Virus record (IMG/VR): IMGVR_UViG_3300043438_001944
Coordinates: 51,692-71,691 of that record
Strand: one strand, 5' to 3'
Length of the DNA: 20,000 nt
Source of the DNA: an uncultured virus (IMG/VR IMGVR_UViG_3300043438_001944)
Taxonomy: Duplodnaviria; Heunggongvirae; Uroviricota; Caudoviricetes
This document shows, piece by piece, positions 924-13,146 of the stretch. A program made the translations under genes and the position numbers. The first letter of the stretch is position 1. The number at the start of each line of letters is the position of its first letter. The notes beneath the pieces were generated by a model. It made no database searches, was not told where the DNA came from, and was given only the letters and a program-made list of their open reading frames with translations.

Positions 924-929
924 CAACAA

Positions 930-1000
930 TGCGGGGAGGAGGGTTCCCAACCAGTCTCATAAGCTGTGTTTTTCAGTTTCGACTACTGGCCCCGCAACCA
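930..1000 (+). tRNA. Atypical tRNA-Met(CAT) with reduced D arm and encoded CCA
   Basis: Acceptor TGCGGGG/CCCCGCA plus ACCA (initiator-like); anticodon loop CTCATAA; T arm TCAGT-TTCGACT-ACTGG; D region only ~14 nt. Confidence 0.75.
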
Positions 1001-1044
1001 TTTTTTTATACAAAAAATTTAATTTATATTAAAAGAAAAACACA

Positions 1045-2042: not shown

Positions 2043-2171
2043 ATGGCTAAAGCTCCAAGAACATCGAGAAGAGTTGCGAAAAAGGCTAGTAAAGCTTTAA
2101 GAAGTAAGAAATCGAGTAGAACCACAAAAACCCTTGCGGGTTCGGCTTTAAGACAACGAAGAAGAAAATAA
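2043..2171 (+). CDS. Small highly basic protein, 42 aa (MAKAPRTSRRVAKKASKALRSKKSSRTTKTLAGSALRQRRRK)
   Basis: Manual translation ATG 2043 to TAA 2171, 22 nt after a consensus promoter; 17 K/R, no acidic residues. Confidence 0.75.
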   Translation: MAKAPRTSRRVAKKASKALRSKKSSRTTKTLAGSALRQRRRK

Positions 2172-7388: not shown

Positions 7389-7462
7389 GGACTTGTAGCT
7401 CATTAGGTTAGAGCGGCACACTCATAATGTGAAGGTAATAGGTTCGATTCCTATCTGGTCCA
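7389..7462 (+). tRNA. tRNA with CAT anticodon, probably Ile2 (lysidine-modified), alternatively Met
   Basis: Acceptor GGACTTG/CTGGTCC with C4-G69 and A73 (Ile-like); loop CTCATAA; T arm ATAGG-TTCGATT-CCTAT. Confidence 0.85.
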
Positions 7463-7658
7463 CTATTTAAAGTATGGGACTCCGATGGAAGTCCACAAGA
7501 AGAGCAGAAGTTTTTCATCCATCATTTATTATCATGGAGACCGCTAAATCGAGTTAGTGAAAATCTACATTCTCCGTGATAATTTCATTCAAAACATCTA
7601 CCGGTGGTTCCACACTAAGGTTATGTGAGGTTTCGGCTGATAAAAGGATGTTATATAT

Positions 7659-7806
7659 TGTAGTGTGACGAAACTGGCAAACGTGCCCTCCTGTCTCGGG
7701 GGCGGTGAAAAAGAAATAGGTAAGTAATATGGGGTAGACCACCAGCCGGCCGGCAAAGTGTTACTTACTGAATCTCATCTTGGTGGTTCGAGTCCATCCG
7801 CTACAG
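7659..7806 (+). tRNA. tRNA-Asp(GTC)-like RNA with a 79-nt structured variable-arm insertion
   Basis: Acceptor TGTAGTG/CGCTACA plus G73; D arm ACG-AAACTGGCAAA-CGT; anticodon arm CCCTC-CTGTCTC-GGGGG; T arm GGTGG-TTCGAGT-CCATC; insert 7703-7781. Confidence 0.75.
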
Positions 7807-7822
7807 CTAATTGTAAATTAAT

Positions 7823-8892: not shown

Positions 8893-8951
8893 TTTGTTTT
8901 TATAAAAATTTTCCTTACCTTTGTAAAAGAAACAAGAAATAGTTCTTTGAA
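8893..8951 (+). promoter_or_regulatory. Bacteroidota sigma-A promoter plus boxA-like element for the large ncRNA
   Basis: TTTG (8893-8896), 19 nt, TACCTTTG (8916-8923); AGTTCTTTGAA at 8941-8951. Confidence 0.75.
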
Positions 8952-8959
8952 TTAAAAAT

Positions 8960-9762
8960 ATTGGCCGCCTATGGTCAACAAAATAAACCATGAAAGTGGG
9001 ATAAAGTGATTTCATTTGGTTGAATGAGATTGCGGTTTTAGAAATAGAACTCGAGTAGGCAAGCAAGATATCATTGAACCTTAAGTACTGAGGGTAACAC
9101 TGTAGGGAAAGTGGTTTAGTGACCAAGCGATGCAGGTCGTTTGGTTGAGTTCGGAAGAACAATAAGAATAACTTGTAGAATTATTACAAGAAGTAGGACC
9201 TCCAATCTTACAATTGTGTGATTCAATATAATGGGAATTTTAAAACCGAAAGGTATGGTAGTGTACAAGTGGTGTTGTTACTATCCTTAATTAGACCCTA
9301 CCAAGGGTTTAGTTTTGAAGAGGTCCAAAAATATGGAGGCAGGGATGTCTCAGAGAGTAGTTTAGTATCGAGTCGCTCAAAAGGTGGCTTGGCTGGTCGA
9401 CGAACCACTACTTTCCTAATCTGCAAACCAAAAACTTTGTTAATTCAGGTTTAACAACTCATAATTAAAAAGAAAAAGTGTTCGTCAGTCATTGGAGACA
9501 GGTGGCTACTTAGTCGTGAGGGGTTCACGGCCATAAAGGGACTCAATCCCAATATGATTTTTAAGAAAGTTCTCTAAACCCATAAGGTTTAATTGGGATG
9601 GCAATCTCGAAGAGTAATAAGTATTAAAAGAGTATCTGATGACTTAAGGATTGGTTAATCTAATTGACCGCCGCTGAGGATTACTACTCAAAAGGTAGTG
9701 GAAAAGAATGGGAAACAATAATCCGTTCAAAAGATTCTCGTTAAGACATGTATTCTCAGTGT
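8960..9762 (+). ncRNA. Large structured ncRNA (~800 nt), GOLLD-like
   Basis: ORF-poor GC-richer stretch between a promoter and a terminator; many G.U-containing hairpins on + strand; long-range pairings 9103-9116/9403-9418 and 9673-9680/9753-9760; size and tRNA-rich phage context fit GOLLD; family not verified by a covariance model. Confidence 0.7.
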
Positions 9763-10648: not shown

Positions 10649-11318
10649 TTTACCTGTAAGTGTTGTGATATCAACACGTAAAATTGATGATGCGTATTTG
10701 AAACATGTCGAAAAAATGTTTTCACATCCCAAAACACAAATACTCATTTATGAGAACGATGGTGTTGAGTCATTAACTCAAATTTATAATATAGGATTAA
10801 AAGATTCTGTAAATGATATTGTTGTTTTTATGCACGATGATCTTATTTTAGAAACTTCTAATATAACACCTAAAATAGTTAAACTATTTGAAAAACATTC
10901 AGAGTATGGAATTATAGGTGTTGCTGGAACTGATAAATTAACAAGTGGGGTTTGGTGGAATAATAGAGAAAATATGTTTGGTGTTGTTGGACATATACAC
11001 GAAGGTAAGAGACACGTTAATCATTATTCTAAGAGTGTTTTTAATGACGTTCTTAAAGATGTGGTAGTTGTAGATGGATTATTCATTATGGTCCATAAGA
11101 AACGAATTAAAAGGGAATTTAATGAGGAGTTTGGTGGATTCCATTTTTATGATATATCATTCTGTGTGGATAATATATTAGAAGGAGTTAAAATAGGTCT
11201 TACAACTAAAATTGGTTTAACACATAAATCAATAGGGATACCCAATAAACAATGGGAGAAAAATAAACTGTTTTTTGAGGCGATATATGAAAAATATCTC
11301 CCAATTACAGTCAACTGA
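10635..11318 (+). CDS. Glycosyltransferase family 2-like protein
   Basis: SLTQIYNIG, VFMHDD (DxD-like), GIIGVAG, VVVVDGLF and FHFYDISFC motifs; ATG 10635 preferred start. Confidence 0.85.
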   Translation: MSKNNLPVSVVISTRKIDDAYLKHVEKMFSHPKTQILIYENDGVESLTQIYNIGLKDSVNDIVVFMHDDLILETSNITPKIVKLFEKHSEYGIIGVAGTDKLTSGVWWNNRENMFGVVGHIHEGKRHVNHYSKSVFNDVLKDVVVVDGLFIMVHKKRIKREFNEEFGGFHFYDISFCVDNILEGVKIGLTTKIGLTHKSIGIPNKQWEKNKLFFEAIYEKYLPITVN

Positions 11319-11359
11319 TTTTAACATAATAACGGATATTTATATATAAAACTAAAAAC

Positions 11360-11554
11360 ATGAAGAAAATTTTTGAATTAATTAAAAAACTATTAGGTGG
11401 TGGCACTTCCCTTGAAAAAGCGGCACAATTACAAGAATTACAAGTTGAGGTTAAAAAAGAGGTTGAGGTTGTGAAAGAAGTGGTTGCTGAAGCTAAGGAG
11501 GTTGTTACTGCTGTTAAAAAGAAAGCTGGTAGAAAACCATCGGCAAAGAAATAA
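11360..11554 (+). CDS. Small hypothetical protein, 64 aa, V/E/K-rich with basic tail
   Basis: ORF track; GATATTTATA motif at 11335-11344 upstream. Confidence 0.75.
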   Translation: MKKIFELIKKLLGGGTSLEKAAQLQELQVEVKKEVEVVKEVVAEAKEVVTAVKKKAGRKPSAKK

Positions 11555-11580
11555 TATTTTCTTTATTTTTGTGATATTCT

Positions 11581-11640
11581 AGGGTTAAAATTTGTTTTTT
11601 AACCCTTTTTTCACTATCTTTGTATCATAGTTCTTTAAAA
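11581..11640 (+). promoter_or_regulatory. Terminator hairpin overlapping a sigma-A promoter and boxA-like element for tmRNA
   Basis: AGGGTTAAAA/TTTTAACCCT plus T run; TTTG (11591-11594), 20 nt, TATCTTTG (11615-11622); AGTTCTTTAAAA (11629-11640). Confidence 0.7.
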
Positions 11641-11643
11641 TAT

Positions 11644-12035
11644 GGGGGTGCCTGGCATTGATTTCAGGTATCGGGAATAAGTGGCACGTAGTCAGACTTC
11701 ATCTATGACTTAAATCTACGGTGGAAAATTTCAAACGGCAACGTTTACAAAAACATGGAAATTGCAGGTTTACTTGCAACTTCCAACGTAGCAGTAGCCT
11801 AAGGCGAAACTACAATCGGGTCGACTGGCATATAACCTAGGAACAGAAGCCTTCAAGGTGTAACACCACTTAGAGTGTTGGAGCAAATCTGACGGCTCTT
11901 GAAAATCCGGTTAGGAACAGTATTGATGGTTTCCTGTAATTAACCTTCTATTTGTCTGTTGAGAACCAATAGAATAAACGTGTAGTCATTTATTGTTGAA
12001 CAGGAAAGACACGGGTTCGAGTCCCGTCACCTCCA
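11644..12035 (+). ncRNA. ssrA: tmRNA (one-piece)
   Basis: 5' GGGGGTG pairs with 3' CACCTCC with G3.U70 and A73; GAC-ACGGG-TTCGAGT-CCCGT T arm; tag frame 11737-11802 (GNVYKNMEIAGLLATSNVAVA*); 392 nt. Confidence 0.93.
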
Positions 12036-12080
12036 CAAAGCTTCTTAGCCGTAGCTTTTTTGATTAGTAAAGTAAATAGG

Positions 12081-12110
12081 AAACCCTTCAGAAATGAGGG
12101 GTTTTTTATT
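12081..12110 (+). terminator. Intrinsic terminator after tmRNA
   Basis: AAACCCTTCA-GAAA-TGAGGGGTTT followed by a T-rich tail. Confidence 0.85.
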
Positions 12111-12124
12111 TGTGGAAAGTCCTA

Positions 12125-12226
12125 TAACGAACAAAAGGTCCGAAGACCCTTTGTCGAGATTAAGAACACCTCCTTTTCGTTTAAATTAATTATTGTTTAA
12201 TGGCGACCAAACCGATTAAACTCTTC
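12125..12226 (-). ncRNA. Putative small RNA carrying an extended Shine-Dalgarno sequence complementary to the 16S rRNA 3' end
   Basis: Minus strand: GATATTTATA motif, GTTTAAT/ATTAAAC hairpin, AAAGGAGGTGTTC, then GACAAAGGGTC-TTCG-GACCTTTTGTT hairpin; no start codon after the SD. Confidence 0.55.
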
Positions 12227-12234
12227 TATAAATA

Positions 12235-13146
12235 TCAGTCATTTTCCATTTCGAGGTTTCTTCTCAAAACTTTTTTGATAATATTTTCTTGTAATGTTTT
12301 TCTATTTAATACCTCCATAGTTGAGTCATCAACTATACCTGTGACTTTTAATGGGTTACCCATTTTATCTTTGTTTGAACTTTGAAAATCTTTAACTGAT
12401 GATAATGTTCTTTGACCAAAAATACCATCAGGAGTACCGTCCTTAGATATGTTCTTATAACCATTTTTAATTAATGAATTTTGTATTTTTGTAACCTCAT
12501 CTCCCTCAGACCCCAATTTAATATTGTTAGATGTTAAAGAAATGTCTTCATTTTCATTTGAGGTAGATTTTTTTACTACATCGTTTTCCCAATAACCAAG
12601 TTTAGAATCTAATCTTGCACCATTCTCTGTGTTAACAATAAATTGATTTGCACCATTACAATCCCAAGTACCGTTAATTTTTCTATTTGGATCATTTCTA
12701 CTTATGTAGATAAATGTTTTATCCATATTAAATTGTAATTGACCTCCACTTGATAGTTTGTAGATAATACCATTTGTACCATCTAATTTTTTTGTTATAC
12801 CTTTTAAAATTTGTGAATTATTTACACAAGAAAATGCCGAGTTAACTTGTGAATCGTCAACAGTATTTGTTGTGGAATCAGTATTTGTCGTTGTTGTGGT
12901 GTTGGTTGTTGTGGTTTGTGTCACTCCTTTACAATATTGATTATTTGGATATAAATCACAAACATATAACTTATAAAATTTATCAATCGAATCGGTATAC
13001 AATTCTAATTTAACCATTTGATTGAATAATTTAGTAATGGTACTTTCATCCTTAAACCACGAATCAACCCAATCGGGGTAAAGTTTATTAGTTATGATTC
13101 TCTCCTCAACTAAAAAAATATATAATTTAACTCTATTTTTTCTCAT
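12235..13146 (-). CDS. Peptidoglycan-binding domain protein (PG_binding_1-like), Thr-rich linker, 303 aa
   Basis: C-terminal IKLGSEGDEVTKIQNSL..PDGIFGQRTLSSVKDFQ..LKVTGIVDDSTMEVL. Confidence 0.82.
   Translation of the reverse strand: MRKNRVKLYIFLVEERIITNKLYPDWVDSWFKDESTITKLFNQMVKLELYTDSIDKFYKLYVCDLYPNNQYCKGVTQTTTTNTTTTTNTDSTTNTVDDSQVNSAFSCVNNSQILKGITKKLDGTNGIIYKLSSGGQLQFNMDKTFIYISRNDPNRKINGTWDCNGANQFIVNTENGARLDSKLGYWENDVVKKSTSNENEDISLTSNNIKLGSEGDEVTKIQNSLIKNGYKNISKDGTPDGIFGQRTLSSVKDFQSSNKDKMGNPLKVTGIVDDSTMEVLNRKTLQENIIKKVLRRNLEMEND

What the first reader, a model, noticed from the sequence alone, without database searches (positions are those of the whole stretch)
12125..12236. Small RNA with a 13-nt complement to the Bacteroidota 16S 3' tail (anti-anti-SD decoy)
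Seen: + strand 12164-12176 is GAACACCTCCTTT, so the minus strand reads AAAGGAGGTGTTC. It is flanked by a 5' hairpin (12221-12195), an AU-rich linker and a C(UUCG)G hairpin whose two G.U pairs work only on the minus strand. The recurrent GATATTTATA motif (12236-12227) precedes it, and no ATG/GTG/TTG follows at RBS distance. Established: many Bacteroidota 16S rRNAs end GGAACACCUCCUUU (versus GGAUCACC in E. coli). Their anti-SD is normally sequestered by bS21/bS18/bS6, and some large Bacteroidota phages encode bS21. Inference: a ~100-nt late RNA, or the 3' UTR of the upstream operon, that base-pairs with 30S subunits to trap, tether or reprogramme ribosomes, possibly linked to bS21 status.
Basis: partly seen in the sequence, partly recalled or inferred. 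Interest (0 to 1): 0.82.

Follow-up and report, generated by a model that had tools for sequence, protein, structure and literature searches.

The report
Phage RNA mimicking rpsU ribosome site
A family of large freshwater phages that carry their own ribosomal protein bS21 also keeps a conserved, folded RNA of about 100 bases with no protein behind it, whose middle copies the unusually long ribosome-docking signal of the host's own bS21 gene, so it probably grips the normally hidden tail of host 16S rRNA, though this has not been shown by experiment.

Summary
Observation confirmed. Window 12226-12125 (minus) is a conserved, structured RNA of bS21-encoding freshwater phages, downstream of and opposite to tmRNA, behind a TATTTAT motif. 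It was found in 47 of 50 loci fetched through a neighbouring protein alone, in 80 distinct versions overall, once per record. Both outer hairpins covary. All 80 keep a GGRGG core and can pair with a Bacteroidota 16S tail (median -22.6 kcal/mol). The two main variants, GGUGUU and GGUAUU, match the two host tails (C1533, U1533) and host rpsU leaders. No canonical start follows in 0 of 67 homologs, and the AUC frame is not conserved. Best reading (0.55): a non-coding mimic of the rpsU initiation site that binds 30S subunits with a freed 16S tail. Transcription, strand and ribosome binding are not shown (inconclusive). No Rfam match; nothing found in my paper searches. The scan noted this RNA earlier on other genomes.

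The parts
12227..12236 (-). Promoter-like motif GATATTTATA (core TATTTAT), overlapping the stop codon of the upstream gene; promoter role inferred
   Evidence: TATTTAT lies 15-19 nt before the P1 loop in 82 of 82 aligned homologs, 15 of which were found with a pattern holding it. In the genome record 21 of 54 TATTTAT sites precede an ATG ORF within 40 nt, against 11/65, 11/59, 15/88, 19/63, 14/100 and 12/53 for six control 7-mers.
12125..12226 (-). The RNA as a whole, about 100 nt; ends inferred, not mapped
   Evidence: Covariance models R1/R2; window match 118.5 bits and no second match under E 0.6. Median identity to 77 homologs: core 0.81, 100 nt upstream 0.47, 100 nt downstream 0.43.
12195..12221 (-). 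P1 hairpin with invariant loop UUGGUC (12210-12205); possible tandem G.A pairs at its base (read from the alignment)
   Evidence: 7 of 10 pairs with changes on both sides in both alignments; loop invariant in 54 of 54 rows, though part of those rows were found with a pattern holding it
12177..12194 (-). AU-rich linker of variable sequence and length, ending in conserved AACGA; AACG may pair with the 3' tail (P3, weak support)
   Evidence: Alignment; P3 pairs 83-84% of cells and is not predicted by RNAalifold; AACGA(A/G)AGG also stands in 10 of 55 Bacteroidota rpsU leaders
12164..12176 (-). Extended Shine-Dalgarno AAAGGAGGUGUUC, complement of the Bacteroidota 16S 3' tail
   Evidence: duplex -22.6 kcal/mol with the C1533 tail, opening cost 4.8; GGRGG core in 80 of 80 distinct homologs
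12155..12160 (-). Nearly invariant AUCUCG: 3' strand of the weak SD hairpin, lying where a start codon would be
   Evidence: AUC 6-9 nt after the core in 67 of 67; no pair of this hairpin changes on both sides in 38 diverse rows; broken in L570, L573, L648 while the core is kept
12126..12154 (-). P5 hairpin, C(UUCG)G loop at 12144-12141, followed by a U-rich tail; terminator role inferred
   Evidence: 5 of 10 pairs with changes on both sides. The simple terminator scan did not list it.
11644..12038 (+). Phage tmRNA, convergent neighbour, followed by its own terminator-like hairpin at 12084-12100
   Evidence: a tmRNA match lies upstream on the opposite strand in 47 of 47 neighbour-fetched loci that hold the RNA
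12235..13146 (-). Upstream gene, 303 aa, with a peptidoglycan-binding domain; context only, upstream sequence differs among homologs
   Evidence: PF01471, PHROG endolysin-family matches over residues 190-287; upstream identity 0.47

Best explanation
A phage small RNA that mimics the translation-initiation region of the host rpsU (bS21) mRNA but has no usable start codon. Shown here by comparison: a conserved three-hairpin fold, no coding frame, and an extended SD kept under selection that follows host 16S tail variants. Inferred: it is made from the TATTTAT motif and ends at P5. The 16S tail nucleates on the unpaired AAA and RUUY flanks and displaces the weak GAGGU/AUCUC hairpin to form a 13-16 bp helix. 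In these hosts the tail is free mainly in 30S subunits lacking bS21, so the RNA would hold those subunits and compete with host rpsU mRNA. That blunts the host's bS21 feedback loop and favours loading of the phage's own bS21, whose gene has no SD. Odds by step: real conserved RNA 0.95; pairs with the 16S tail 0.75; purpose is capture of bS21-less subunits or blocking rpsU induction, given pairing, about 0.6.
For: 47 of 50 neighbour-fetched loci hold the RNA and all 47 keep AAAGG(A/G)GGURUUN. In a scan whose pattern left the SD out, 62 of 71 distinct hits had the core and the other 9 failed the covariance model. P1 and P5 covary, but the SD hairpin shows no compensatory change, and its G.U is never G-C. 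The hairpin cannot explain the loop: with the hairpin strand fixed and the loop shuffled, 32 of 41 distinct segments pair with a 16S tail better than 95% of shuffles. The main variable column is G or A, matching tails C1533 and U1533, and it changes at least 3-4 times on a tree of 38 neighbour proteins. Four divergent homologs (L575, L590, L648, L663) insert one base yet keep UGUUC, the complement of GAACA. Host rpsU leaders share AACGA(A/G)AGGAGG and the same two variants. No SD core before 0 of 21 parsed phage bS21 genes, of 24 loci tried. Best SD-like energy before 66 long phage ORFs is -8.8 kcal/mol. bS21 in the own record and in 4 of 4 near-complete relatives. Host mechanism from PMC9976891 and PMC7797042 (passages).
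Against: No binding or expression data; RNA-library contigs cover the element only together with the upstream gene. The predicted fold buries the core. Hosts of single phages are unknown, so variant-to-host covariation is untested; 42 of 67 homologs carry the A variant, which loses about 5 kcal/mol on a C1533 tail, while PMC9723584 points mostly to Flavobacteriia by bS21 likeness. Some homologs break the extension (GGGGUUC, GUAUCC, GUAUUA). No homolog with the Chryseobacterium-type SD2 was found. The invariant P1 loop and AUCUCG are unexplained; no complement of the loop in one Bacteroidota rRNA operon. Homologs are related, so counts overstate independent events. A chance site of equal energy exists in a tRNA-like gene. 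Co-occurrence with bS21 may only reflect shared descent.
Confidence: 0.55

Rival explanations
1. The purine stretch is just one strand of an internal hairpin (GAGGU/AUCUC) in a three-way-junction RNA with another job, such as binding a protein or a tRNA end through the invariant UUGGUC loop; the 16S match is incidental or a relic of a captured rpsU leader.
For: The hairpin is predicted in the window and in the consensus and pairs 97% of cells. The P1 loop and AUCUCG are as invariant as the SD and 16S pairing does not explain them. Most tolerated changes are transitions, which are common anyway.
Against: No compensatory change in this helix in 38 diverse rows while P1 and P5 covary. It is broken in L570, L573 and L648 with the core kept. 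The loop's 5' half is ordered to match the tail (32 of 41 segments) while its 3' half varies freely.
Confidence: 0.17
2. A cis-acting element: a STAB-SD-like 30S docking site at the 3' end of the upstream mRNA or at the 5' end of a downstream mRNA, which stabilises or tethers that message.
For: Contigs from two RNA libraries run from the upstream gene into the element and stop at 12170 and 12179 (weak). In 22 of 67 homologs a same-strand ORF starts within 200 nt after AUCUCG.
Against: Flanks are not conserved (0.47 and 0.43 against 0.81). 45 of 67 homologs have no such downstream ORF, and 16 of the 22 ORFs have their own AT-rich motif, loosely defined. TATTTAT sits at fixed distance in 82 of 82.
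Confidence: 0.12
3. The site starts a micro-ORF at the near-cognate codon AUC, and initiation there by bS21-less ribosomes works as a sensor coupled to the P5 terminator.
For: AUC lies 6-9 nt after the core in 67 of 67, overlapping host rpsU spacings of 5-12 nt; the first codons read I-S-(T/A) in all.
Against: The frame from AUC is 6 to 65 codons long, 6 in 24 of 67, and shifts with hairpin length; no conserved gene downstream to control.
Confidence: 0.1
4. The plus strand is the RNA: an anti-SD copy (GAACACCUCCUUU) read on from the tmRNA side that pairs with and blocks the host rpsU SD.
For: The plus strand is identical to the 16S tail over 13 nt; strand was not measured.
Against: G.U pairs, the UUCG loop and the fold favour the minus strand; the motif sits on the minus strand; a terminator-like hairpin follows tmRNA at 12084-12100; distance to tmRNA varies from about 30 nt to 2.5 kb.
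Confidence: 0.04

Closest known systems
Extended-SD initiation region of rpsU, the bS21 autoregulation site of Bacteroidia (PMC9976891, PMC7797042; passages read, supplement Fig. S7)
   Same: Long complement of the 16S tail, the same C1533/U1533 variants, AACGA(A/G)AGG upstream in several hosts, similar spacing to the downstream triplet
   Different: No AUG and no bS21 frame behind it; flanked by covarying hairpins that rpsU loci lack (no model match at the leaders of 5 host loci); phage-encoded, 20-40 kb from the phage bS21 gene
SprF1 and other ribosome-associated ncRNAs (review PMC8938821, passage read)
   Same: Small RNA proposed to bind ribosomes through a purine-rich stretch and compete with mRNA loading
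   Different: SprF1 is a type I antitoxin of S. aureus, binds at the subunit interface and acts globally; no Rfam match links the two; binding here is untested
STAB-SD of cryIIIA (only the reference title seen; mechanism recalled)
   Same: SD without a start codon that docks 30S
   Different: STAB-SD acts in cis in a 5' UTR of a fixed gene in Bacillus; here no fixed downstream gene, and hosts ignore ordinary SDs
bS21-encoding Bacteroidetes phages of Chen et al. 2022 (PMC9723584; passages read)
   Same: bS21 on the opposite strand between head protease and portal, beside major head protein and terminase; 32% GC; relatives up to 335 kb
   Different: That paper's main text has 0 occurrences of tmRNA, non-coding or ncRNA; clade placement of this record was not tested by phylogeny

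Membership tests
Any Rfam 15 family | Covariance-model match at the gathering score | tested here: not met
   No match over 12125-12236; best E-value hits in 12030-12330 lie far below gathering
rpsU extended-SD initiation region | Extended complement of the 16S tail (stronger than -13 kcal/mol in the paper's scale) | tested here: met
   13 of 13 Watson-Crick pairs with the published tail; RNAduplex -17.9 to -25.8 in 80 of 80 homologs (a different program from the paper's)
rpsU extended-SD initiation region | Start codon and bS21 reading frame after the SD | tested here: not met
   0 of 67 with ATG/GTG/TTG 4-15 nt after the core; AUC frame unrelated to bS21
rpsU extended-SD initiation region | Preferential use by ribosomes lacking bS21 | not testable with these tools
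   Needs toeprinting or reporters
rpsU extended-SD initiation region | Covariation with the ASD of the same cell | tested here: inconclusive
   Variants mirror C1533/U1533 but hosts of single phages are unknown; no SD2 form found
Ribosome-associated ncRNA (SprF1-like) | Non-coding, structured small RNA | tested here: met
Ribosome-associated ncRNA (SprF1-like) | Shown to bind ribosomes and change translation | not testable with these tools
   No experiment; one search holds contigs only
STAB-SD | Lies in the 5' UTR of a fixed downstream gene | tested here: not met
   Downstream same-strand ORF in 22 of 67, of several unrelated kinds
bS21-encoding Bacteroidetes phages (Chen 2022) | bS21 on the reverse strand within the head-protein, protease, portal, terminase block | tested here: met
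   G000:24565-24714 +; neighbours named by PHROGs

The most novel reading that the evidence does not exclude
The RNA is the RNA half of a two-part ribosome-refitting device: it pries the 16S tail out of the bS21/bS18/bS6 pocket or holds bS21-less subunits, with P1 docked on the platform and a non-start triplet in the P site, until phage bS21 is loaded, while shutting the host's rpsU feedback. This would be a phage RNA that changes host ribosome composition, the kind of exchange factor that PMC9976891 speculated such phages encode.
Probability: 0.25. Interest if true: 0.92.

Novelty: new variant of a known kind. Interest (0 to 1): 0.72.

Why it matters
bS21 is the ribosomal protein most often carried by phages, and how it gets into host ribosomes or helps the phage is open (PMC9723584, PMC9976891). 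In Bacteroidia the anti-SD is hidden and is used almost only by rpsU. A phage RNA that copies that one signal without a gene gives a direct, testable handle on both questions in F. johnsoniae, where bS21-less ribosomes and rpsU reporters already exist. The RNA class itself has no Rfam family and did not turn up in my paper searches.

Tried and rejected
Expression: four RNA-library runs were laid on 11200-12800. All are contigs, so strand, ends and level cannot be read and depths cannot rank genes. The element was covered in X1 (one 3.1-kb contig), in part in X4 and X10, and not in X7. Inconclusive.

Converse co-occurrence: 8 fragments found through bS21 (G105-G112) gave no RNA match. The two checked also lack tmRNA, and the RNA lies 20-40 kb from bS21 elsewhere, so truncation is the likely cause. 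A distant relative, G011 (48% complete), lacks bS21 in the matching slot and has no RNA or tmRNA match, but the locus may be missing from the fragment. Not counted either way.

Cellular homologs: 0 of 101 Bacteroidota genomes, with only 34 candidates scored per genome; no match at 5 host rpsU loci. No match among 50,697 annotated phage records by DNA or with bS21.

Partner for the P1 loop or AUCUCG: none in one rRNA operon; best non-self sites in the own record fall elsewhere and were not tested for conservation. A loop-GRC pseudoknot gives only 3-4 pairs without two-sided change (read); not adopted. The 5' end resembles the 16S 5' end (AGAGUUU) but varies and pairs within P1; treated as chance. 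The strong SD-like site at window about 930 is in a tRNA-like gene and is not kept in relative L806; chance.

The upstream protein gave no relatives. A promoter-plus-SD scan without P1 gave 113 matches, 12 of them this RNA, and no second family that I could recognise by eye.

Rows dropped: 6 chance pattern hits before alignment A1 (L171, L186, L190, L194, L218, L231; none matched the model). One 28-bit spurious row stayed in A2 for and most likely gives its single two-sided change in the SD helix; it was dropped in my scripts. One segment (L573) was cut short by the parser.

Literature: nine searches showed no description. For Fremin 2023 (PMC10690425) six supplements gave no motif match, but files 1, 2 and 4 were not searched and may hold this RNA as an unnamed candidate. 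Subscription papers and bioRxiv supplements were not seen.

Full report
Setting. The window is the end of a 71.7-kb virus record, G000, 32% GC and estimated 21% complete. It carries 11 tRNA genes, a GOLLD RNA and a tmRNA. Elsewhere in the record, bS21 lies on the opposite strand among genes for major head protein, head protease, portal and terminase. This is the layout that Chen et al. describe for freshwater phages predicted to infect Bacteroidetes (PMC9723584, passages). The host of this record is inferred from that, not shown.

The observation. The 13-mer, both hairpins, the upstream motif and the lack of a start codon are all there at the stated places. The exact 13-mer occurs in 0 of 200 shuffles and equals the F. 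johnsoniae 16S tail in McNutt's Table S1. One thing was missed: the core GAGGU pairs with AUCUC eight bases on, so the site is half buried in the predicted fold.

Conservation. I fetched 50 loci using only a glycosyltransferase-like neighbour. 47 hold the element, each on the strand opposite to tmRNA and about 30 nt to 2.5 kb past it; the three without it have the most distant neighbour protein, 48% identity. These loci include near-duplicates. Pattern scans of viral and metagenome contigs added more, giving 80 distinct cores from 184 hits. The core is 0.81 identical to the window at the median against 0.47 and 0.43 for the flanks (77 homologs). Whole records hold one strong copy: 10 of 12 and 15 of 25. 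It was not found in 101 Bacteroidota genomes, a shallow search, nor in Rfam.

Structure. On the model-fitted alignments, 17 of 30 pairs (68 rows, one spurious) and 14 of 30 pairs (38 more diverse rows) change on both sides, above all 500 shuffles and far above slid controls. The alignments lean towards the structure I gave and the rows are related, but RNAalifold on the plain alignment also finds P1, the SD hairpin and P5, with 8 of 22 pairs compensatory. P3 is weak. G.U pairs and the UUCG loop point to the minus strand. TATTTAT stands 15-19 nt before the P1 loop in 82 of 82 rows, and precedes ORFs more often than control 7-mers; calling it a late promoter is inference.

Not coding. No ATG, GTG or TTG starts 4-15 nt after the core in 67 homologs. 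The frame from the conserved AUC runs 6 to 65 codons and shifts with hairpin length.

Why the SD looks selected for outside pairing. First, all 47 neighbour-fetched copies keep it, and so do all true hits of a scan whose pattern left it out: 62 of 71 distinct hits, the other 9 failing the model. Second, its internal hairpin never shows a compensatory change in 38 diverse rows and breaks in L570, L573 and L648 while the core stays. Third, the loop's 5' half is ordered to pair with the tail: 32 of 41 distinct segments beat 95% of loop shuffles. Fourth, the main variable base is G or A, which is the difference between hosts with C1533 and U1533. U1533 tails came up in Chitinophagaceae, Sphingobacteriaceae, Saprospiraceae and some Flavobacteriales, and host rpsU leaders show the same two forms (PMC9976891 Fig. 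S7). The label changes four times on a tree of the neighbour protein, at least three forced by strong branches. Fifth, four divergent copies insert a base after GGAGG yet keep UGUUC. The duplex is -22.6 kcal/mol for the window against 4.8 to open the site.

Likeness to rpsU. Of 55 Bacteroidota rpsU loci, 29 have an SD core 5-12 nt before the start, and 10 carry AACGA(A/G)AGG just as the phage RNA does. The phage's own bS21 genes have no SD core in 0 of 21 parsed, and its long ORFs have none stronger than -8.8. bS21 was found in 17 of 24 and 6 of 15 records, mostly fragments; two of the 24 (G011, G012) have no clear RNA match, and 4 of 4 records at least 90% complete have both.

Mechanism. Established from PMC7797042 and PMC9976891 (passages): the Bacteroidia 16S tail is held in a bS21/bS18/bS6 pocket; ribosomes lacking bS21 use the long SD of rpsU; such complexes form even without fMet-tRNA. 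Inferred: the phage RNA offers the same signal with no start, so it holds subunits with a freed tail, competes with rpsU mRNA and favours the phage's SD-independent bS21. I put this at 0.55.

What speaks against it. Nothing shows transcription or binding; RNA-library contigs cover the element only with the upstream gene. 42 of 67 homologs carry the A form, which pairs about 5 kcal/mol worse with C1533 tails, whereas Chen et al. lean to Flavobacteriia; hosts are unknown. Several homologs break the extension. The invariant P1 loop and AUCUCG have no explanation, and no partner was found. Shared descent alone could link the RNA to bS21, and the converse test was inconclusive.

Comparison and novelty. 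It works like the rpsU initiation site, if the inference holds, but is not one: the start codon and frame are missing. Ribosome-binding small RNAs (SprF1) and start-less SDs (STAB-SD, title only; mechanism recalled) are precedents for the principle, so I class it as a new variant of a known kind; the RNA family itself is undescribed in what I could search (parts of one key supplement unread; one preprint checked by passages without a match). Earlier notes of this scan reached the same reading on other genomes; I had noted the rpsU lead, before seeing them, and they are not independent support.

Noticed in passing
window 929-1001 +: tRNA-Met(CAT)-like gene ending in CCA, with an initiator-like acceptor stem (likeness recalled) and a short D arm, missed by ARAGORN and Rfam. 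DNA matches in 2 of 5 relatives. Its D arm is the one site in the record that rivals the finding for 16S-tail pairing, but L806 does not keep that.
   Followed up: partly
window 9353-9762 +: GOLLD RNA, 298.8 bits, with a long ORF-poor stretch upstream (about 8950-9350) that may hold more RNA
   Followed up: no
window 11644-12038 +: Phage tmRNA with tag ATSNVAVA by ARAGORN; many RNA-library contigs match it, some from other organisms
   Followed up: partly
window 7460-7815 +: GC-richer stretch after the tRNA-Met with tRNA-like pieces (T-arm-like ends near 7700-7810) that neither ARAGORN nor Rfam called (sequence seen); could be a split, intron-bearing or degenerate tRNA
   Followed up: no
window 2043-2171 +: Short, very basic ORF (MAKAPRTSRR..., about 42 aa, read by eye), below the ORF list cut-off; possibly a DNA- or RNA-binding peptide
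   Followed up: no
G000:C1:24565-24714 + (L168): Phage bS21 gene with an AT-only leader and no SD
   Followed up: yes
L554-L557, L560: A group of Bacteroidota-phylum rpsU leaders reads AAACGAAAGGAAGUG, sharing the AACG motif with Flavobacterium-type leaders and the phage RNA although the SD core differs; AACG may have a role of its own
   Followed up: no
L899 (G011:C1:119000-131000): Distant relative with the same head-gene block but two other ORFs where bS21 would be; a possible outgroup if a complete genome is found
   Followed up: partly
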